The notes under the pieces: generated by a model | The model's database searches: none | The model's input: the letters and a program-made list of their open reading frames with translations, nothing else | What the model was told of the DNA's origin: nothing | NCBI GenBank assembly: GCA_945882015.1 | Contig: CAMCVM010000003.1 | Span: 33,342-97,341 of the forward strand | DNA: 64,000 nucleotides | Direction of reading: 5' to 3' | Origin: a candidate division TM6 bacterium GW2011_GWF2_32_72 | Lineage (GTDB): Bacteria > Babelota > Babeliae > Babelales > CAIQNR01 | Program-made: the position numbers and the translations under genes | Shown: piece by piece, positions 6,185 through 14,192 of the stretch | How the letters are laid out: every line of letters starts with the position of its first letter | Numbering within the stretch: the first letter of the stretch is position 1

Positions 6185-7105
6185 TTAAAGTTCTTCTTTT
6201 TCCATAGTATTAAGCGGGTGAATCGTATCACACATATCAGCAAGTTGAGCAGAAGTAATATGGGTATACTTTTCAGTACTTGCTAGTGTAGCATGCCCTA
6301 ATAATTCTTGCACAACACGCAGATCAGTTCCTTGATTTAAAAGATGTGTCGCAAAAGAATGGCGAATTTTGTGTGGAGTAATATTTTTATTACCTTGTAA
6401 AAAAGATCTGAACATTTTCATAACGCGTTGCACTGTTCGTTGATTTAACGGTTCGTTAACGTGACTGACGAGTAAAAAATCTTTATCACTTACCGGTTTA
6501 GGTCGCTCTTTTTCAAGATATTCAATAATCCGTTCTTTTGCCTTTTTACCAAATAAAGCAAAGCGTTCCTTTCTGCCTTTTCCAGTAATACGGATAATTT
6601 TTTCTTCTAAATTAACATCTTGAATTTTAATATTGCATAATTCAGAGCACCGAATGCCCGTTGCATATAACAGTTCAAAAATAGTTTTATCGCGAATAGG
6701 GCGAATTGAGGGCAAATCTTCGTCTTTAACCGTATCCAGTAAATAAAAAACTTCATCAACGGTTAAATAGGTAGGGAGCTTTTTATCAATGCGTGGCCGT
6801 TTGAGTTTAAGATTAAGACGAATATCAAAAATTTTAAGATAATTTTCAAAAGATCTGAAGCATGAAATTTTGCGAGCTACAGAGCTTTTATCTATTTTTT
6901 TATGAAAAAGGAATACAAAGTACCGTTCTAAAGCTCGACGCAGTTCAATCTTTTCAGATTCTTCTTGTTCTACTCTGGTCCAAAAATCACAAAAAAGTTT
7001 AAAATCACCTTTGTAAGACTTTTGGGTATTAAGACTTAAATTTTTTTCGATATTAATATAGCTTAAAAAATCATTTCTATATTTTTTAAAATCTTGAAAA
7101 TACAT
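6185..7105 (-). CDS. tyrosine site-specific recombinase, XerC/XerD type
   Basis: 306 aa with the catalytic pattern ATGIRCSEL, HKIRHSFATHLL, LGHATLASTEKYTH. Its stop lies 2 nt upstream of the PBP2 start, so the two are probably co-transcribed. Confidence 0.85.
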   Translation of the reverse strand: MYFQDFKKYRNDFLSYINIEKNLSLNTQKSYKGDFKLFCDFWTRVEQEESEKIELRRALERYFVFLFHKKIDKSSVARKISCFRSFENYLKIFDIRLNLKLKRPRIDKKLPTYLTVDEVFYLLDTVKDEDLPSIRPIRDKTIFELLYATGIRCSELCNIKIQDVNLEEKIIRITGKGRKERFALFGKKAKERIIEYLEKERPKPVSDKDFLLVSHVNEPLNQRTVQRVMKMFRSFLQGNKNITPHKIRHSFATHLLNQGTDLRVVQELLGHATLASTEKYTHITSAQLADMCDTIHPLNTMEKEEL

Positions 7106-7249: not shown

Positions 7250-7987
7250 ATGTTTAAAATTCAAAAATTAATGTTAATTAGTTTTCTTGTTCTTTTTTCA
7301 GTTTTACAGGCAAAAGGTTTACGTGAAATTGCTCACTTGCCTCATGCTCAAGACCTTATTACAGAAGTTTTTAAAGAGCGTGGGTTAGATCCAAAAGATT
7401 TTGAATTTACATTTTATAATAAAAAAGGTAGTTGGTGTTACGTCTTAGGGAAAAATACCTTTGGATGTGATTTAATATTTTTGGAAAGATTAAATCAATT
7501 AGCTAAAGAAATTAAAGAAGAGTCTTCCATAAAGGGTAGGTTAATAAATTATGTAACTGGAAGAGATAAAAAATTTAATGAAAGTGTATTGCTTTTAGAA
7601 GGTTTTTTAGGTCATGAGATACAGCATCATTTTGATAGAGACGATTTGACAAGGGCTATCGTTTTATTTAATGGTTCACATGAATTGAAAAGAGAGATTT
7701 TTTTAGCGCTTGAAAAAAAAGCTGATTTATTCTCTTCAAACAATCCAGAAGTATTGAGAGCTTTAGCTTCTTATTTTGAAAAATTTTATCAAGAGTATGT
7801 TGTAACAATAAAATATATTGAAAGAATAAAAGCTCAAGGTTTTAGTATTCAAGAACCAGAAGAAGATAAGGATCATCCACATCCTTTAGAAAGAGCTTCT
7901 TATTTACGTGAAAAAGCAGATCAACTTAAAGCAGCACGAAGATTAGAATGGGGCAAAGAAGAAGATTATTTGATGCTTTCAAATTAA
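7250..7987 (+). CDS. secreted HExxH-motif protein, tandem paralog 1 of 5 (family not recognised)
   Basis: 245 aa with a signal-like N-terminus. Motifs: conserved LPHAQ..I..VF..RG..PKDFEF, then GHEIQHHFDRDD (HExxH) and KKADLFSSNNPEVLRALA. Confidence 0.8.
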   Translation: MFKIQKLMLISFLVLFSVLQAKGLREIAHLPHAQDLITEVFKERGLDPKDFEFTFYNKKGSWCYVLGKNTFGCDLIFLERLNQLAKEIKEESSIKGRLINYVTGRDKKFNESVLLLEGFLGHEIQHHFDRDDLTRAIVLFNGSHELKREIFLALEKKADLFSSNNPEVLRALASYFEKFYQEYVVTIKYIERIKAQGFSIQEPEEDKDHPHPLERASYLREKADQLKAARRLEWGKEEDYLMLSN

Positions 7988-8018
7988 ACTAAGTATTTTA
8001 AATGTTGGGGTTATAACT

Positions 8019-8708
8019 ATGGTTACTGTTTTTAATCGTTTTCTTTTAATTATTTTGGTATCGTTTTCAGGTTTGTTTGCAAAAGGTTTACGTGAAATTG
8101 CTCACTTGCCGCATGCGCAAGCTCTTATTACAAAAGTATTTAAAGAGCGTGGGTTAGATCCAAAAGATTTTGAATTTACATTTTATAATAAAAAAGGTGA
8201 CAATTGGTTATATTATCCAGGAATAAATGGTTTTTCTTTTGATTTATGGGACCTTGAAAAAGTTAACGATACGATGAATTATCCAGACTCTTTGTATCAA
8301 TTAATAAATTGTGACCGGTTTGGGCTTAAAAGCAGAAGAGAGCATCTATTATCTACTCAAGGATTTATAGGCCATGAATTGCAACATGCATGTGATCGTG
8401 CAGCAATAATCGATCTCTATTCTAGTGGGAAAAATTCAGATGAACTTACAGAAGAACTAAAAAAATTAGAAGCAAGAGCAGATCTTTTTTGTTCATCTGA
8501 TCCTGAAGTATTAAGAGCTTTAGCCAGATCTTTTAAGTATGCTTATGAACAAGTTAGATTACTTACTTTTTCAGGAAATCATGAAGCATGTACAATGTAT
8601 CTAAAAAAAATTGATCCAATACATCCTACATTCATTCAAAGATATCATTATTTATGTGCAGCAGCAGCTCAACTTGAGCAAGAAGGCTGTGGTTCTGCTC
8701 AACGATAA
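8019..8708 (+). CDS. secreted HExxH-motif protein, tandem paralog 2 of 5
   Basis: 229 aa. Residues ~21-60 are almost identical to paralog 1. HExxH is intact (GHELQHACDR), followed by ARADLFCSSDPEVLRALA. Confidence 0.8.
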   Translation: MVTVFNRFLLIILVSFSGLFAKGLREIAHLPHAQALITKVFKERGLDPKDFEFTFYNKKGDNWLYYPGINGFSFDLWDLEKVNDTMNYPDSLYQLINCDRFGLKSRREHLLSTQGFIGHELQHACDRAAIIDLYSSGKNSDELTEELKKLEARADLFCSSDPEVLRALARSFKYAYEQVRLLTFSGNHEACTMYLKKIDPIHPTFIQRYHYLCAAAAQLEQEGCGSAQR

Positions 8709-8794
8709 TTATTGAAATTTTTTATAGGTTCTTTAACCTGTAAAAAACCGTATGATAAATCTTTTATTAATAAAAAACTGAAAGCATCAGCAGA

Positions 8795-9562
8795 ATGAAA
8801 TTGCATAGATTAGGATTATTTGCTGTATGGATTCTATCTTTTCAACTACAATCAAGCTTTGTTTTTACAAAAAAAGCATATCCTTTAATAGTCCAAAGTT
8901 ATCTATTAGTAAAACGTCATGCAGCAAATCAACCATCTTTTGCTCTTAATGAATCGTTTAAAGAAAAAGATTGGGATAGATATTGGCGCCATTTCCCTTA
9001 TGCAGCATCGGCAGTAAAAGATATTTTTAATGCGAGAAATACCAGTCCAAAAGAATTTAGCTTTATTATAAAGCAAACTATAAATTGGGAATATTGTTGT
9101 GCTTTTAATACCTTTTATTATCCACAACAAGACATAGCAGAATTTGATGATACGTTACAAAGACAAACTTGGGGACTTGCTGAAAAAAAGAGATTACATT
9201 GGGATATTATGAAAGATGGTATGACAACTAAACAGCAGCATGTTCTTCTTGTAAAAGGGATTATTGGGCATGAACTACAGCATGCTTTTGATAGAGGCCA
9301 ACTGTTGTTATTATTGCATTCTCCTGTTGCTCTCCACTCTCAAGATAAAAAATATCAAATACTTAAAGAACTTGAACATAAGGCAGATACGTATGCTTCA
9401 CAAGATCCAGCAGTACTGGAAGCACTTGCAAAATTTTTTATGCATCTGCATCTATTGCATATAAAAAATCAAGAACTAGACCAAGAAAGTAAACAACATC
9501 CATCATGTTTAGAACGAGCACAGTATTTTTTTGAATTAAGTAAATTAAGAACGAAAAAATAA
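8795..9562 (+). CDS. secreted HExxH-motif protein, tandem paralog 3 of 5
   Basis: 255 aa with a signal-like N-terminus. Motifs: FPYAASAVKDIFNARN..PKEFSF, GHELQHAFDR, HKADTYASQDPAVLEALA. Confidence 0.8.
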   Translation: MKLHRLGLFAVWILSFQLQSSFVFTKKAYPLIVQSYLLVKRHAANQPSFALNESFKEKDWDRYWRHFPYAASAVKDIFNARNTSPKEFSFIIKQTINWEYCCAFNTFYYPQQDIAEFDDTLQRQTWGLAEKKRLHWDIMKDGMTTKQQHVLLVKGIIGHELQHAFDRGQLLLLLHSPVALHSQDKKYQILKELEHKADTYASQDPAVLEALAKFFMHLHLLHIKNQELDQESKQHPSCLERAQYFFELSKLRTKK

Positions 9563-9566
9563 AAGA

Positions 9567-9638
9567 TTATTCTGCAATTTCATAAAAATTAAGCCCGTGT
9601 TCTTTAAATCTTCTATTGGCAGAAGATTAATTGACACC
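9567..9638 (-). pseudogene. relic copy of the 3' end of the downstream regulator gene (the intact end is at 11439)
   Basis: The reverse strand reads ..SSANRRFKEHGLNFYEIAE-stop, compared with ..SSVNRRFKEHGLNFYETAE-stop for the real gene. An in-frame stop lies just upstream and there is no ORF body. Confidence 0.75.
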
Positions 9639-9723
9639 TAAGTTGATTTTTTTATTAATTAATTTTATCTTTTACTGATTCTTTAATAGAATAAAAATTA
9701 AAAATAAATAAAAAGGATCAAAA

Positions 9724-10509
9724 TTGAAGTTACACAAAATAGCTCTATTTTTCGTATTATCTGGATCTATAAGTTTGCACGCGATTCCTTTTTTACAAAG
9801 AGGGAAAAATCTTTTAGGTTTAGCTGCCGCTCATTTATCAAGAAAAAATCCGTCTTTAAATAATCAAAGATTGCTGAGTCAAAAATCGTTTAAACCAGGC
9901 AGCTTTGAAGCAATGCAGCGTGATTTTCCGCATGCAGCACAGAAAGTACAAGATATTTTTGCTGCAAGAAATCAAAATACAAAATCATTTGAATTTTTTT
10001 GTAAAGGTGAAAATATGTGGAATATTGTTTCTCTTCCACTCAACGTTTTTCATTATTCACAAAAATTTATGCAAGAAATTGATGATACCTTGAAGAAACA
10101 ATCAGATGTGTTAACAAGTGTATTGCCTCTTAATGAAACTTTAAGATGGGGAATCGAGACTAAACAAGAACAGGTTTTTCTTTTTTATGCAAGAGTTGGT
10201 TATTATTTGGAATGTAGCATTAATGTTAGTCAATGGCTAGAGTTATTAGCTATTGATAATGATAATATTAGATTTAATAAGCAGGTAGATTTTGTGCATA
10301 AAGTATACACTAATATGTATGGTGCTAAAAATCCAGAAATACCAGAAATATTAAAAGTCCTGCTTAAATATTATATGCATCAGCATGAATTATCTAAGGA
10401 TTTGTATGAAGCTCAATCTTTGATTACTCCAAAAGAGTTAGAGCCATTAACAAGCTTAGGAAGAGCCAAATTTATATCAAATTTAATTAAACAAAAAACG
10501 AAAAAATAA
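9724..10509 (+). CDS. secreted paralog 4 of 5, HExxH motif degenerate
   Basis: 261 aa with a TTG start 8 nt after AAGGA. It shares FPHAAQKVQDIFAARN..FEF with the family, but the HExxH position reads GYYLECSINV. Confidence 0.75.
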   Translation: MKLHKIALFFVLSGSISLHAIPFLQRGKNLLGLAAAHLSRKNPSLNNQRLLSQKSFKPGSFEAMQRDFPHAAQKVQDIFAARNQNTKSFEFFCKGENMWNIVSLPLNVFHYSQKFMQEIDDTLKKQSDVLTSVLPLNETLRWGIETKQEQVFLFYARVGYYLECSINVSQWLELLAIDNDNIRFNKQVDFVHKVYTNMYGAKNPEIPEILKVLLKYYMHQHELSKDLYEAQSLITPKELEPLTSLGRAKFISNLIKQKTKK

Positions 10510-10513
10510 AAGA

Positions 10514-10585
10514 TTATTCTGCAGTTTCATAGAAATTAAGCCCGTGTTCTTTAAATCTTCGGTTGGCAAAATATTAATTGAAACC
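10514..10585 (-). pseudogene. second relic copy of the regulator gene's 3' end
   Basis: ttattctgcagtttcatagaaattaagcccgtgttctttaaatcttcggttggc is near-identical to 11439-11495 and to 9567-9620. Confidence 0.75.
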
Positions 10586-10660
10586 TAATTATTAATTAAT
10601 TTTATCTTTTACTGATTATTTAATAAAATAAAAATTAAAAATAAATAAAAAGGATCAAAA

Positions 10661-11431
10661 TTGAAGTTACACAAAATAGCTCTATTTTTCGTATTATCTG
10701 GATTTGTAAGTTTGCATGCGATTCCTTTTTTACAAAGAGGTAAAAATATTTTAGGTTTAGCTGCCGCTCATTTATCAAGAAAAAATCAGTCTTTAAATAA
10801 TCAAAGGTTGCTGAGTCAGAGATCTTTTAAATCAGATAGTTTTGAAGCAATGAAGCATGATTTCCCGTATGCAGCACAGAAAGTACAAGATATTTTTGAT
10901 ACAAGAAATAAAAATACAAGAGGATTTGAATTTGTTATTAAAGGTAATAATACTTGGGGTTATGCTCCTGCTGTACAAGCTTTTTATTATCCACAAATAT
11001 GTATTCAAGAAGTTGATGATACGTTGCAAATAAAGACAGAGGGGTTACATCAAGAAGATAGGTCACCTTACGATTATAGCAAAGATGGAATAAAGACTAA
11101 ACAAGAACAGGTTTTACTTTTTTATGGAATGGTTGGATATCATTTACAGCGTTCTGTTGATTGGAATAAGTGGCTAGAATTATTAGCTATAAATGATGAT
11201 AATATTAGATTTAATAAGAATATAGATCTTTCGTGTAAAGCATACACTGATATGTATGGCGCAAAAAATCCAGAAATACCACAAATATTAGAAGTAATGG
11301 TCAAATATTATATGCATCAGCATGAATTACATAAAAATAAAGGATTGTATGTACCAAAAGAGTTGCGGCCGTTAACAAACTTAGGGCGAGCCAATTTTTT
11401 ATTTAATTTAATTAAACAAAAAACGAAATAA
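10661..11431 (+). CDS. secreted paralog 5 of 5, HExxH motif degenerate
   Basis: 256 aa with a TTG start. The N-terminal ~60 aa are near-identical to paralog 4. The HExxH position reads GYHLQRSVDW. Confidence 0.75.
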   Translation: MKLHKIALFFVLSGFVSLHAIPFLQRGKNILGLAAAHLSRKNQSLNNQRLLSQRSFKSDSFEAMKHDFPYAAQKVQDIFDTRNKNTRGFEFVIKGNNTWGYAPAVQAFYYPQICIQEVDDTLQIKTEGLHQEDRSPYDYSKDGIKTKQEQVLLFYGMVGYHLQRSVDWNKWLELLAINDDNIRFNKNIDLSCKAYTDMYGAKNPEIPQILEVMVKYYMHQHELHKNKGLYVPKELRPLTNLGRANFLFNLIKQKTK

Positions 11432-11438
11432 TAAAATA

Positions 11439-14192
11439 TTATTCTGCAGTTTCATAAAAATTAAGCCCATGTTCTTTAAATCTGCGATTTACAGAAGACC
11501 GATTGACCCCTAAAAAGAGCGCAATTTTATTCTGACTTTTGAATTTTTTCCATAAAACATTTAAAAGTTTTGAATCTTTTAGTGCATGTTTGCCAAGGCG
11601 AGCGGCTTCTATTAATTGTGGATCGGTTAAATGATAAGCACTTTCAAATTGAATTTCTTGATAAATTCCAGTCTTTTTAGATTTATTAATAAGTAGTTGC
11701 TGTATTCGTTCTTTCAGTTCTTTTAAACTTATTGGTGCTTGTGCTGCAAGATACTGTTTTTCATTATCAGAAAGTTTAATAAGATTTTTAAATTCTTGAG
11801 CTGTTAAAGTCTGATGAGTAAATCCTTCTATTAATTCTTCCATTTCTATCTCTGGCAAGGTTAATAAAGAAGGCATGCTCAAAGATTCTTTTTTAAGTTC
11901 ATTAAACAGGACGTTACTAAATTTGCCTTGTTGGACCATATAGGAAAGGTCTTGGTTTGTTGAACAAATGATTCGTACATCACTTTGCACTCGTTTGTCA
12001 CTTTTAAAAATAGTATAAAATCCATAGCGAATAAATTGAGCAAGATTATTTTGGGCATCAAGATCAAGGTGTTCAATATTTTTAATGAGCAATGTCCCTT
12101 TTCTATTTAGTTTTTCAAGAAGAGCTGCGTCATTTAAGCAACCATATAAAGGATTAATCCCAAACAGTTTCATGCAAGTGTCAGCGCATGAAATTTGTGA
12201 ATTTAATTCAAGAACATGTAATGTTTCTCGTAAACTGATAATGTGCAATAATTCAACCAGCGGGATTAAATCATCTTCGGGTAAATCAAGCAATAAGGCT
12301 TTTTTCCCTAAGGCTAACTTTAAAAGATTAACTTTAAAATTTAAGAGTATTTGACCATTGCCGGGAATTAATTGATTAATTAATTTGCCTGATTTTGTTG
12401 TTTCTAAATATAATAAATAGTCCCAATCAGAAGGGTCTTTTAAAGAATCGATCTGTTTTTTGATACTATCATAAATTTCAGGATAATAGAGCGTGATAAT
12501 CACTTGATGATGCTCTATTTCTGGCACACCAGAAATAACAATTTGCTTTCCTGAAAAAGTTTTAACTACTTGTGTTTGGTGTGTTTTATACAGCAGTGTT
12601 TGTTGTGCTATGTGGTGTAATGTTTTGGTAACGGTGTCACCTTTATGTTGATTAGGGTCTACTTCAAGCAATTGACTAGCATCTTGGTTAGCCATAATAA
12701 AACGATTATTTTTGTAAAATATAATTCCAATTGCTCGATGGCTATTATTTAAAAATGAACGGATACTTTCTTTATATTGATTAATTTCTTGATGTTTTAA
12801 ATAAAGTTCTTCAATAATTGTTTTTCGTTGCTTTAAAAGTTCATGAAGATTTCTATTTTGTAAAAGATTAATAATTTTTGATAAAAAGCTTGCAAAAACG
12901 ATCATCTCATCACGTTCTCTATCACTGTAAAGCTGCTTACCACGGGCATGGCGTTCTATAGTAATTGAGCCGATAATTTTTTGTTCTTCATAAATAGGTA
13001 AAAAAATATCTGCCTGTATGGTATCTAAAAATCCAAGTGCAATTTGATGAGAGGTTTGCGTTTCATAAAAATCATCATATTCAACTTCATCATAGATAAG
13101 AATTTTTTCTCGTTTTAAGTAATCATTCATAGTTAAAGAAGATTCTATGTTTTTTTCATTTAAGAAGTGTTCTAACTGATTGCTATTAAATTCGTTGCCA
13201 TCGGTATTTTTATAATCAGTTGCAATATTTGATTCAAAAGATCGTATGGCTAATTTTACATTTGCATAAGGGATATTAAATGCTTGTCCAAAAAAACGTT
13301 GTGTAAGGAGCGTGACTTCATGGCTTGTTGTTGCGCTTCCTAATGATTCAAGGATTGTTTTAAGATGGTCAGCACAATTAAAGGTATCAGAAGCATGATG
13401 TACATGGTTATGCATATTTAAAAAACGAAGACGAATAATTTTTTTTAAACAGTAATAGAGAGCAACTGTTAAAAAAATGTTAGAACAAATGGTTGCAAGA
13501 ATTGAAATGCCATCTGTGATCCCATAAATGGCAAGCGGAAAAGTATGATAAATATTAATCAGTACATGAAAAATAAAAAATATAATAACATAGGTAAGTT
13601 GAGTCTTTAAAATTTTATGAGATTTGTTTTTTTGCAGCTGTTTTAAACCATACAATAAGCTGAGTGGCATTAAGATAAGCAGAGCAAAAATCGATTCATG
13701 AGTATAAATGGTGAATTCAAAATCAGGCCTATAAGAGGGGTCAAAATAAAAAATCGCAATTACTAAGGGGCTTAAGAAGAAAAATAAACTAATGAAGCAT
13801 GCAACCATTTGGTGGTAAGAGATTCTTTTAATGCGCTGAGTAAATGATTCTAAAAAAAGAGCTAATGATTGATACATTAAAATATTAGATGCCCATGTAA
13901 TTCGAATCAATAAAATTACCGGTTTATAGTCAATATTTGGTAGGAATGTATATCGAGCCAATGAAACTATCCATGAAAAATCTTCTAACGTAGAGCACCC
14001 AATAACAATTAAAAGATAATACCACGAAATAGGAGATTTTTTAGCGGTTATTAATCTTTTTATAAACGATAGAAATAAAGTAATTTTAAAAAAAAATGAG
14101 ATTGTTTGGACACTAAAAAGAATACATCGCATTGTGTAGACATCATGCAAGACACTAGCAAAAGCTTTAAATAAGCTAGACACGAATAACAC
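11439..14192 (-). CDS. membrane-anchored transcriptional regulator with polytopic N-domain, GAF/PAS-like middle, degenerate sigma54-activator AAA+ core and Fis-type HTH
   Basis: 917 aa. The first ~260 aa are multiple hydrophobic helices. The central region aligns by eye to the NtrC AAA+ core (KGTLLIKNIEHLDLDAQNNLAQFIRYG..DVRIICSTNQDL..VQQGKFSNVLFNEL). Walker A, GAFTGA, Walker B DE and the Arg fingers are replaced. The C-terminal HTH is IALFLGVNRSSVNRRFKEHGL. Confidence 0.7.
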   Translation of the reverse strand: MLFVSSLFKAFASVLHDVYTMRCILFSVQTISFFFKITLFLSFIKRLITAKKSPISWYYLLIVIGCSTLEDFSWIVSLARYTFLPNIDYKPVILLIRITWASNILMYQSLALFLESFTQRIKRISYHQMVACFISLFFFLSPLVIAIFYFDPSYRPDFEFTIYTHESIFALLILMPLSLLYGLKQLQKNKSHKILKTQLTYVIIFFIFHVLINIYHTFPLAIYGITDGISILATICSNIFLTVALYYCLKKIIRLRFLNMHNHVHHASDTFNCADHLKTILESLGSATTSHEVTLLTQRFFGQAFNIPYANVKLAIRSFESNIATDYKNTDGNEFNSNQLEHFLNEKNIESSLTMNDYLKREKILIYDEVEYDDFYETQTSHQIALGFLDTIQADIFLPIYEEQKIIGSITIERHARGKQLYSDRERDEMIVFASFLSKIINLLQNRNLHELLKQRKTIIEELYLKHQEINQYKESIRSFLNNSHRAIGIIFYKNNRFIMANQDASQLLEVDPNQHKGDTVTKTLHHIAQQTLLYKTHQTQVVKTFSGKQIVISGVPEIEHHQVIITLYYPEIYDSIKKQIDSLKDPSDWDYLLYLETTKSGKLINQLIPGNGQILLNFKVNLLKLALGKKALLLDLPEDDLIPLVELLHIISLRETLHVLELNSQISCADTCMKLFGINPLYGCLNDAALLEKLNRKGTLLIKNIEHLDLDAQNNLAQFIRYGFYTIFKSDKRVQSDVRIICSTNQDLSYMVQQGKFSNVLFNELKKESLSMPSLLTLPEIEMEELIEGFTHQTLTAQEFKNLIKLSDNEKQYLAAQAPISLKELKERIQQLLINKSKKTGIYQEIQFESAYHLTDPQLIEAARLGKHALKDSKLLNVLWKKFKSQNKIALFLGVNRSSVNRRFKEHGLNFYETAE

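What the first reader, a model, noticed from the sequence alone, without database searches (positions are those of the whole stretch)
7250..11431. Five-gene tandem array of secreted proteins, with HExxH intact in three members and lost in two
- All five proteins share a signal-like N-terminus.
- They also share a conserved block (L/F)P(H/Y)A(A/Q)..(V/I).(D/K/E)(I/V)F..R......F(E/S)F and a C-terminal helical region (KAD.(F/Y).S.(D/N)PEVL.AL in members 1-3).
- Members 1-3 have G-H-E-(I/L)-Q-H-x-(F/C)-D-R, an HExxH zinc-binding-type motif.
- Members 4-5 read GYYLECSINV and GYHLQRSVDW at the same position, so the putative metal ligands are gone.
- A mix of catalytically competent and dead paralogs, all with signal-like N-termini, is typical of expanding effector families. 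I cannot assign this family to a known peptidase clan.
Basis: partly seen in the sequence, partly recalled or inferred. Interest (0 to 1): 0.6.

Follow-up and report, generated by a model that had tools for sequence, protein, structure and literature searches.

The report
Tandem exported M48-like proteases, two dead
Five neighbouring genes in a tiny host-dependent bacterium (Babeliales/Dependentiae) encode exported, very diverged copies of a known zinc protease family (M48, HtpX/BepA type); three keep the full metal-binding site, while two have lost it yet are still conserved, which is a tidy but not surprising case of a lineage-specific protease expansion.

Summary
Five head-to-tail + strand ORFs (7250-11431) are paralogs, each with one N-terminal hydrophobic, signal-like segment. 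HExxH is present in members 1-3 and replaced at the same alignment columns in members 4-5.

It is a compact, highly diverged branch of peptidase family M48 (gluzincins).
- It carries the three M48-type motifs: HExxH, ExxAD (third zinc ligand) and HPxxxxR.
- Its profile finds Pfam-certified M48 proteins in other Babeliales.
- An HMM built only from those proteins finds members 1-3 in this genome (E 4e-12 to 2e-6), with no false hits among 1342 ORFs.
- hhalign gives 90.5% probability, with all three motifs in register.
- Pfam, NCBIfam and PDB sequence searches miss the window proteins themselves. Foldseek support is only weak.

Members 4-5 lost all three motifs in a single event before they duplicated. 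They are intact in other lineages and under purifying selection (dN/dS 0.35-0.42, P<=0.002), so they are pseudoproteases, not pseudogenes.

The array changes fast, through copy-number differences, gene conversion and broken copies in a near-identical relative.

Export to the host is inferred, not shown.

The scan has already noted tandem exported M48 arrays in other Babeliales genomes. Interest is modest.

The parts
7250..7987 (+). Member 1, 245 aa. Signal-like N-terminus at residues 1-21. HEIQH at aa 122-126 (nt 7613-7627), EKKAD at aa 155-159 (nt 7712-7726), HPHPLER at aa 209-215 (nt 7874-7894). The extreme C-terminus is YLMLSN.
   Evidence: ORF. Motif positions. AF2 model: pLDDT 85.8, pTM 0.78. 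Hit by the HMM built from foreign Pfam-positive M48 proteins, E 4.3e-12.
8019..8708 (+). Member 2, 229 aa. HELQH at aa 119-123 (nt 8373-8387), EARAD at aa 151-155 (nt 8469-8483), HPTFIQR at aa 202-208 (nt 8622-8642).
   Evidence: AF2 model of residues 22-222: pLDDT 88.3, pTM 0.86. Foreign M48 HMM E 1.2e-9.
8795..9562 (+). Member 3, 255 aa. HELQH at aa 159-163 (nt 9269-9283), EHKAD at aa 194-198 (nt 9374-9388), HPSCLER at aa 235-241 (nt 9497-9517).
   Evidence: Foreign M48 HMM E 2.1e-6. Orthologs at 66-87% identity keep all three motifs.
9724..10509 (+). Member 4, 261 aa, TTG start, a pseudoprotease. YYLEC replaces HExxH (aa 160-164, nt 10201-10215). HKVYTN replaces ExxAD. EPLTSLGR replaces HPxxxxR; only the Arg is kept.
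   Evidence: Alignments. The ortholog in L048 has the same degenerate state. dN/dS 0.35-0.37, P=0.0007.
10661..11431 (+). Member 5, 256 aa, TTG start, a pseudoprotease. YHLQR replaces HExxH (aa 160-164, nt 11138-11152). CKAYTD replaces ExxAD. RPLTNLGR replaces HPxxxxR.
   Evidence: Orthologs P0028, P0032 and P0033 have the same state. dN/dS 0.42-0.44, P=0.002.
9482..11513 (+). Tandem duplication units of about 937 bp covering members 3, 4 and 5. The repeat families are 9652-9951 / 10589-10888 (93% identical) and 9482-9641 / 10429-10588 / 11354-11513. The second family contains relic copies of the 3' end of the convergent regulator gene.
   Evidence: the repeat finder. The sequence at 9567-9620 read in reverse complement gives ..RRFKEHGLNFYEIAE*, which matches the C-terminus of the regulator ORF 11439-14192.
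7295..7429 (+). Gene-conversion tract in member 1, copied from member 2 (partner tract 8064-8198).
   Evidence: Nucleotide identity in the tract is 92% for w1-w2 and 90% for w1-a2. It is 67% for a1-a2 and 69% for w1-a1. The rest of the gene is 55% identical between w1 and w2.

Best explanation
**What it is.** The five genes are a lineage-specific tandem expansion of a compact, highly diverged branch of peptidase family M48. M48 is the zinc gluzincin family of HtpX, BepA, LoiP and Ste24. The genome is a Candidatus Babeliales (Dependentiae/TM6) genome of about 0.82 Mb.

**Shown.**
- The family is homologous to M48.
- HExxH, ExxAD and HPxxxxR are conserved in members 1-3.
- All three motifs are lost in members 4-5.
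- The loss was a single event, followed by purifying selection.
- The array turns over through duplication, gene conversion and gene loss.

**Inferred mechanism.**
- Each protein is exported through Sec by its N-terminal signal.
- In members 1-3 the two His of HExxH and the Glu of ExxAD hold one Zn2+. For member 1 these are H122, H126 and E155.
- The motif Glu (E123 in member 1) activates water, and the enzyme cuts proteins or peptides.
- Unlike HtpX and most Babeliales relatives, these proteins have no hydrophobic hairpin between HExxH and the glutamate helix. The mature enzymes should therefore be soluble.
- Soluble enzymes can be released into the periplasm. They may then pass through the genome's type II secretins to the outside, where the likeliest targets are host (protist) proteins.
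- Members 4-5 cannot bind zinc this way. They are retained as non-catalytic binding or regulatory paralogs.

**Confidence.** The figure of 0.7 is for the whole statement. It is about 0.9 for the M48 homology and the dead-paralog part, and about 0.45 for a host-directed role.
For: **Motifs and alignment.**

**Size of the family.** Only 21 cluster representatives in 1.84e9 proteins match at E<=1e-3. Close homologs are named 'Candidatus Babeliales bacterium'.

**Link to M48.**
- The family profile hits the catalytic half of 290-430 aa proteins in 28 of 261 genomes of the order. The best hit is E 6e-19.
- Of those proteins tested, 4 of 4 and 6 of 9 exceed Pfam PF01435's gathering score. Scores run from 20.8 to 58.6 bits against a cut-off of 20.3.
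- hhalign of 17 active members against Babeliales M48 gives probability 90.5% and P 1.3e-6 over 217 columns, with all three motifs in register. Reversed and shuffled controls give 0-0.1%.
- The reciprocal HMM, built from foreign Pfam-positive M48 proteins, was run against all 1342 ORFs of the genome. There were six hits in total: three ordinary M48 genes and members 1-3, with nothing else up to E=10.

**Fold.**
- The AF2 models are confident, with the expected order of secondary-structure elements.
- The best Foldseek hits are gluzincins. They are M48 peptidase 3c37, and selecase, jannalysin and abylysin with probability up to 0.89.

**Pseudoproteases.**
- The degenerate state is conserved in a4, a5, P0028, P0032 and P0033.
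- They form one clade with 100/100 support on a long stem branch (1.28), sister to the member-3 clade.
- dN/dS is 0.35-0.44 with P<=0.002.

**Export.**
- Each protein has a single N-terminal hydrophobic segment.
- The genome has two secretin genes.
- Secreted M48 peptidases were predicted in the cultured Dependentiae member Chromulinavorax destructans (PMC6561590).
- dN/dS of the array is 5-20 times that of the flanking xerC-like and regulator genes, 0.35-0.68 against 0.03-0.07. This fits proteins that face a changing partner.
Against: - None of the five proteins reaches any Pfam or NCBIfam threshold on its own. The PDB sequence search is empty.
- No Foldseek hit reaches E<=0.001, and TM-scores are low at 0.2-0.47.
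- Against only the five most canonical M48 sequences, hhalign probability drops to 33%.
- No signal-peptide predictor, transcript data or proteomic data were available.
- A periplasmic housekeeping role is not excluded.
Confidence: 0.7

Rival explanations
1. The proteins are exported only to the periplasm or inner-membrane surface. There they act on the bacterium's own envelope proteins, as the M48 proteases BepA, LoiP, YcaL and HtpX do in E. coli. On this reading they are not host-directed effectors.
For: - All characterised bacterial M48 members are envelope quality-control enzymes (established knowledge of the family).
- The N-terminus could equally be an uncleaved signal anchor.
- No evidence of delivery to a host was obtained.
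Against: - The genome already has three ordinary M48 genes.
- The compact family is missing from the same-genus genome G001. The N-terminal 100 profile positions are not matched in any other of the 261 genomes of the order.
- Copy number differs between near-identical strains.
- dN/dS is 5-20 times that of neighbouring housekeeping genes.
- A core envelope function would not be this dispensable or this fast-evolving.
Confidence: 0.3
2. Members 4 and 5 are decaying pseudogenes with no function, and the 'dead paralogs' are simply on their way out.
For: - All catalytic residues are gone.
- Both use TTG starts.
- In the near-identical relative L051 the 4/5 unit is reduced to one copy with a frameshift.
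Against: - Both are full-length and open in the window and in L048. Further intact orthologs exist: P0028, P0032 and P0033.
- dN/dS is 0.35-0.44, significantly below 1 (P 0.0007 and 0.002). This matches active member 3.
- The degenerate motif itself is conserved (GYHLQRSVDW is identical in w5, a5 and P0028).
- The loss predates a duplication that predates the split of the two lineages.
Confidence: 0.1
3. The family is not an enzyme at all. HExxH would be a structural or chance motif in a helical, non-catalytic secreted protein.
For: - There is no direct database hit.
- Foldseek also lists helical bundles and designed proteins at similar E-values.
Against: - Three separate M48 signature motifs are conserved and in register with certified M48 proteins.
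- The reciprocal HMM is specific, and the controls are clean.
Confidence: 0.03

Closest known systems
Peptidase family M48 (Pfam PF01435; HtpX, BepA/YfgC, LoiP/YggG, YcaL, Ste24, Oma1)
   Same: - It has HExxH, then a downstream ExxAD glutamate helix, then a C-terminal HPxxxxR. All three are in register in the profile-profile alignment.
- The proteins are exported or envelope-facing.
- The family is detected by an HMM built from certified M48 proteins.
   Different: - It scores below Pfam's threshold on its own.
- It lacks the transmembrane hairpin that HtpX and most Babeliales relatives carry between HExxH and the Glu helix. The spacing is only 32-35 residues.
- It has a family-specific N-terminal block, (F/L)P(H/Y)AA..V.DIF..R, that no other genome of the order matched.
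- It has no TPR domain (unlike BepA) and no lipobox (unlike LoiP).
Tandem exported M48-like arrays in other Babeliales genomes (earlier notes of this scan, e1-3519532 and e1-4837067) and the 'secreted M48' peptidases listed for Chromulinavorax destructans (PMC6561590)
   Same: - Same phylum and same enzyme family.
- They also carry signal sequences and occur as tandem paralogs.
- I saw such expansions myself: 10 M48 matches in G007 and 5 in G008, several adjacent.
   Different: - Those proteins are 290-430 aa, mostly carry the hydrophobic hairpin, and are detectable by Pfam.
- The present branch is shorter and more diverged.
- It contains two conserved catalytically dead members.
Minigluzincins (selecase, projannalysin, proabylysin; PDB 4qhi, 4jix, 4jiu)
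   Same: They are small soluble HExxH catalytic domains, used as structural models for the M48 and M56 catalytic cores. They are the highest-probability Foldseek hits of the trimmed member-2 model (probability 0.77-0.89, target-normalised TM about 0.45).
   Different: - They are about 100 aa, against about 200 aa for the mature proteins here.
- Their third zinc ligand is a His (as stated in PMC6925264), whereas this family has the M48-type Glu in ExxAD.
- The Foldseek E-values (0.4-1.3) are not significant.
Legionella pneumophila RavK (a small soluble HExxH protease that cleaves host actin)
   Same: It is a small soluble HExxH protease of a bacterium living inside amoebae. Its reported HHpred neighbours are the same set seen here: minigluzincins, M48 peptidase 3C37 and a weak lethal-factor match (bioRxiv 10.1101/2024.03.14.585084). 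It is a working precedent for 'M48/minigluzincin-like effector'.
   Different: - RavK is injected by a type IV system and has no Sec signal.
- No sequence comparison with it was made here.
- Its substrate specificity cannot be transferred to this family.

Membership tests
Peptidase family M48 (PF01435 / MEROPS M48) | HExxH zinc-binding and catalytic motif on a helix | tested here: met
   Members 1-3 have HEIQH or HELQH inside a long predicted helix. The motif is absent in members 4-5.
Peptidase family M48 (PF01435 / MEROPS M48) | Third zinc ligand Glu on a downstream helix, in an ExxAD-type motif | tested here: met
   EKKAD, EARAD and EHKAD lie 32-35 residues after the first His. They align with E(Y/F)xAD of the M48 set in hhalign. 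Metal binding itself was not tested.
Peptidase family M48 (PF01435 / MEROPS M48) | C-terminal HPxxxxR motif | tested here: met
   HPHPLER, HPTFIQR and HPSCLER align with (T/S)HPxxxxR of the M48 set. Its standing as a family signature rests on my knowledge plus the alignments of Pfam-positive proteins.
Peptidase family M48 (PF01435 / MEROPS M48) | Score above Pfam's gathering threshold (20.3 bits) | tested here: not met
   None of the five window proteins hits PF01435, even at E<=10. Two of 19 family members give E 0.025. The criterion is met only transitively, through relatives scoring 20.8-58.6 bits.
Peptidase family M48 (PF01435 / MEROPS M48) | Significant, specific profile similarity to certified members | tested here: met
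   - hhalign gives 90.5% probability and P 1.3e-6. Controls give at most 0.1%.
- The HMM of foreign Pfam-positive M48 proteins finds members 1-3 at E 4e-12, 1e-9 and 2e-6, with no false hit among 1342 ORFs.
Peptidase family M48 (PF01435 / MEROPS M48) | Fold match to a solved M48 structure | tested here: inconclusive
   3c37 (M48) is the top Foldseek hit of the member-1 model, but at E 0.34 and TM 0.32-0.34.
Peptidase family M48 (PF01435 / MEROPS M48) | Zinc-dependent peptidase activity | not testable with these tools
   Needs a biochemical assay.
Minigluzincins | Minimal catalytic domain of about 100 residues with His as third zinc ligand | tested here: not met
   The mature proteins are about 200-235 aa and carry Glu in ExxAD. 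There is structural resemblance only.
Sec-exported / secreted protein | Cleavable N-terminal signal peptide | tested here: inconclusive
   Each protein has a single N-terminal hydrophobic stretch with small residues at -1 and -3. No signal-peptide predictor was available, and a signal anchor is not excluded.
Host-directed effector | Delivery to, and action on, a host cell | not testable with these tools
   The support is circumstantial only: two secretins, fast evolution and patchy distribution.
Pseudoenzyme (members 4-5) | Loss of catalytic residues, with retention under purifying selection | tested here: met
   All three motifs are lost. The genes are intact in at least two lineages, with dN/dS 0.35-0.44 and P<=0.002. 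They form a single clade.

The most novel reading that the evidence does not exclude
The array may work as a protease/pseudoprotease system. The two conserved dead paralogs would act as non-catalytic partners. They might trap substrates, act as decoys, or regulate the three active enzymes or their host targets. The whole cassette would be exchanged between lineages as an adaptive unit. Synonymous divergence in the array (pS 0.05-0.21) is two to ten times lower than in the flanking genes (0.41-0.51).
Probability: 0.25. Interest if true: 0.5.

Novelty: new member of a known kind. Interest (0 to 1): 0.3.

Why it matters
- **Annotation.** It gives five 'hypothetical proteins' a family assignment and predicted catalytic residues. 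The same holds for about 20 metagenomic relatives that Pfam and NCBIfam miss.
- **Scale.** M48-like exported proteases make up at least eight genes in this 0.82-Mb parasite genome: the five here and three elsewhere.
- **Pseudoenzyme example.** It is a clean natural case of a protease turning into a conserved pseudoenzyme inside a tandem array.
- **Context.** Dependentiae are almost uncultured parasites of protists. Such exported enzyme families are among the few handles on how they handle their hosts.
- **Limit.** It does not open a new kind of system.

Tried and rejected
- **Direct family scans.** Pfam and NCBIfam scans of the five proteins gave nothing meaningful.
- **Lethal-factor match.** Member 2 gave a sub-threshold Pfam match to the lethal-factor domain (E 0.2, 11.8 bits against a cut-off of 27.4). 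I read it as generic similarity of the HExxH helix. The same neighbour is reported for RavK in the paper read. I did not pursue it, and no such sequence was fetched.
- **PDB sequence searches.** Profile searches with A1 and A2 returned only chance helical matches.
- **Foldseek.** Searches with both models (full-length member 1; trimmed member 2) gave the right kind of top hits, but none was significant.
- **Model coordinates.** They are not exposed, so distances between zinc ligands could not be measured.
- **Promoter and terminator scan.** It found no more sites than shuffled sequence, so it says nothing about operon structure.
- **dN/dS of member 1.** The value of 0.68 is inflated by a gene-conversion tract and should not be read as relaxed selection.

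Full report
**Observation.** The window holds five head-to-tail + strand ORFs at 7250-7987, 8019-8708, 8795-9562, 9724-10509 and 10661-11431. They lie between a xerC/D-type recombinase gene and a large sigma-54-activator-like gene, both on the minus strand.

- MAFFT alignments (A1; A2 with 14 relatives) show the five are paralogs. Identity to member 1 is 47, 32, 22 and 24%.
- GHE(I/L)QH of members 1-3 stands in the same columns as GYYLEC and GYHLQR of members 4-5.
- Each protein has a single hydrophobic stretch, at its N-terminus, with small residues before a plausible cleavage site and no lipobox.
The C-terminal motif was written slightly too strictly: member 2 has RAD and member 3 has PAVL.

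**Organism and context.**
- The window is part of an 819-kb assembly in 18 contigs, 92% complete.
- Close homologs carry the NCBI name 'Candidatus Babeliales bacterium'. This is a member of the Dependentiae (TM6), host-dependent bacteria of protists.
- The array is AT-richer (28-32% GC) than the genes upstream (35-39%).

**What the family is.**

Direct scans fail.
- No Pfam or NCBIfam model is hit, and PDB sequence searches are empty.
- A full HMMER pass over 1.84 billion cluster representatives finds only 21 proteins at E<=1e-3.

Aligning these proteins shows three blocks conserved in every non-degenerate member.
- G-HE(L/I)xH.
- E-x-x-AD followed by (A/S)S.(D/N)P.(V/I)LRA.
- HP-x-x-x-x-R followed by A.YL.
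- To my knowledge this is the motif set of peptidase family M48: HExxH, a third-ligand Glu in ExxAD, and a C-terminal HPxxxxR.

Four independent tests support that assignment.
1. The family profile hits the catalytic half of 290-430 aa proteins in 28 of 261 genomes of the same order, down to E 6e-19. Of those I scanned, 4 of 4 and 6 of 9 pass Pfam PF01435's gathering score.
2. hhalign of the 17 active members against an alignment of Babeliales M48 proteins gives probability 90.5% and P 1.3e-6 over 217 columns, with all three motifs in register. Reversed and column-shuffled controls give at most 0.1%. Against only the five most canonical HtpX-like sequences the probability is 33%, P 4.6e-4.
3. 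The reciprocal test used an HMM built only from Pfam-positive M48 proteins of other genomes. It was run against all 1342 ORFs of at least 80 aa in this genome. It returned six hits and nothing else up to E=10. These were three ordinary M48 genes (contigs C6 and C17) and members 1, 2 and 3, at E 4.3e-12, 1.2e-9 and 2.1e-6.
4. AF2 models are confident: member 1 has pLDDT 85.8, and member 2 residues 22-222 have pLDDT 88.3 and pTM 0.86. They show a backing helix, a three-stranded sheet, the HExxH helix and a following helix carrying ExxAD.

Foldseek gives only weak support.
- There is no hit at E<=0.001.
- The top hit of model 1 is the M48 peptidase 3c37 (E 0.34).
- The highest-probability hits of model 2 are the minigluzincins selecase, jannalysin and abylysin (probability 0.41-0.89), plus IrrE/PprI and M1 aminopeptidases. 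All of these are gluzincins.

My conclusion is that the family is a compact, strongly diverged branch of M48. Membership holds by profile and motif criteria but not by Pfam's own threshold.

**How it differs from its relatives.**
- Most Babeliales M48-like proteins, like HtpX, have a hydrophobic hairpin between HExxH and the glutamate helix (sequences). The window proteins have only 32-35 residues there and no second hydrophobic segment, so the mature proteins should be soluble.
- Their N-terminal half, with the block (F/L)P(H/Y)AA..V.DIF..R......F.F, is matched in no other genome of the order. All foreign hits start at profile position 100 or later.
- The same-genus genome G001 has no copy.

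**The dead paralogs.**
- Members 4-5 have lost more than HExxH. The ExxAD Glu is replaced (HKVYTN, CKAYTD). HP has become EP or RP, and only the Arg remains.
- The same degenerate sequences occur in the orthologs a4 and a5 and in P0028, P0032 and P0033.
- In a maximum-likelihood tree the dead members form one clade (100/100) on a long stem branch (1.28 changes per site). That clade is sister to the member-3 clade (100/98). The 4/5 duplication is older than the split between the window lineage and L048.
- Between the window and L048, dN/dS is 0.35 for member 4 and 0.42 for member 5, like active member 3 at 0.39. A binomial test on Nei-Gojobori counts gives P = 0.0007, 0.002 and 0.001 for omega below 1.
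- They are therefore conserved pseudoenzymes rather than decaying genes.

**Dynamics of the array.**
- Members 3-5 sit in tandem units of about 937 bp. Units 4 and 5 are 93% identical over the 5' part.
- Each junction carries a relic of the 3' end of the convergent regulator gene.
- A metagenome contig (L048, ENA ERZ27247375) has the same five genes in the same place.
- A near-identical genome (L051, JGI 3300049043 / NCBI LVQ75) differs in three ways.
  - It has two extra members upstream.
  - Its member-3 ortholog has a stop at the codon of the ExxAD Glu.
  - It has a single, frameshifted 4/5-type unit.
  - Assembly error cannot be excluded for those two lesions.
- A 135-nt tract of member 1 has been overwritten by member 2 in the window lineage. 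This inflates the member-1 dN/dS of 0.68.
- The array's dN/dS (0.35-0.68) is far above that of the flanking genes (0.03, 0.07).

**Likely mechanism.**

Shown:
- homology to M48;
- an intact motif set in three members;
- loss of the motifs in two members, with purifying selection afterwards.

Inferred:
- Sec export;
- one Zn2+ held by the two His and the ExxAD Glu, with the motif Glu as general base;
- soluble mature enzymes in the periplasm or released through the type II secretins. The genome has two secretin genes, and TM6 genomes generally do (PMC4776705).

A host-directed role is favoured by patchy distribution, copy-number change and fast evolution.
- Deeg et al. list secreted M48 peptidases among the putative secreted proteinases of Chromulinavorax destructans (PMC6561590).
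- Legionella RavK is a small soluble HExxH protease that cleaves host actin. Its reported HHpred neighbours are the same as those seen here.
- An envelope housekeeping role like that of BepA, LoiP or HtpX remains a serious rival, at about 0.3.

**Comparison and novelty.**
- The scan has already reported tandem exported M48 arrays in two other Babeliales genomes (e1-3519532, e1-4837067).
- I saw such expansions myself, with 10 matches in G007 and 5 in G008.
- New here are a branch too diverged for curated models, without the hydrophobic hairpin, and two conserved dead members.
- This is a new member of a known kind, of modest interest (0.3).

**Limits.**
- There was no signal-peptide predictor and no access to model coordinates.
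- There was no structure model of a dead member.

Noticed in passing
window 7250-11431 versus L048 1360-5522, and flanks window 6185-7105 and 11439-14192: Synonymous divergence between the window and the L048 lineage is much lower in the array (pS 0.05-0.21) than in the flanking recombinase and regulator genes (pS 0.41 and 0.51). Overall nucleotide identity is similar across the region, about 0.85-0.97. This suggests the array was exchanged between lineages more recently than its flanks, or some other mosaicism.
   Followed up: partly
window 7295-7429 and 8064-8198: A gene-conversion tract: the 5' part of member 1 was overwritten by member-2 sequence in the window lineage and in L051, but not in L048. 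Identity is w1-w2 92%, w1-a2 90% and a1-a2 67%.
   Followed up: yes
window 9567-9620, 10514-10570, and the true gene end at 11439: Relic copies of the 3' end of the convergent sigma-54-activator-like gene follow members 3 and 4. Read in reverse complement they give ..RRFKEHGLNFYEIAE*. The duplicated unit therefore included the end of that gene.
   Followed up: partly
window 7967-7984 (member 1 C-terminus) and relatives P0010, P0012, P0015, P0016, P0018, P0020, P0029: The extreme C-terminus (Y/C)L(M/V)(L/F)(S/P)N is conserved in member 1 and about half of the family, but absent from members 2-5. It may be a sorting signal, or an autoinhibitory tail like the C-terminal segment that blocks the cleft in minigluzincin zymogens. 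That comparison is from memory and is untested.
   Followed up: no
L051 10420-12117: In a 98-99% identical relative, the member-3 ortholog has a TAA at the codon of the zinc-ligand Glu (ELEHKAD becomes EL*CKAD). The only 4/5-type copy is frameshifted in its signal region. Two further family members (274 and 230 aa) lie upstream. The lesions are either real decay or MAG assembly error.
   Followed up: partly
G000 contig C17 4103-6955 and contig C6 10151-10876: The genome has three further signal-bearing M48-like genes: a tandem pair of about 345 aa and one of 242 aa. That makes at least eight M48-like genes in 0.82 Mb.
   Followed up: partly
window 11439-14192 (-): The large convergent gene hits Sigma54_activat in its ortholog. 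It evolves slowly (dN/dS 0.07). Whether it regulates the array is unknown.
   Followed up: no
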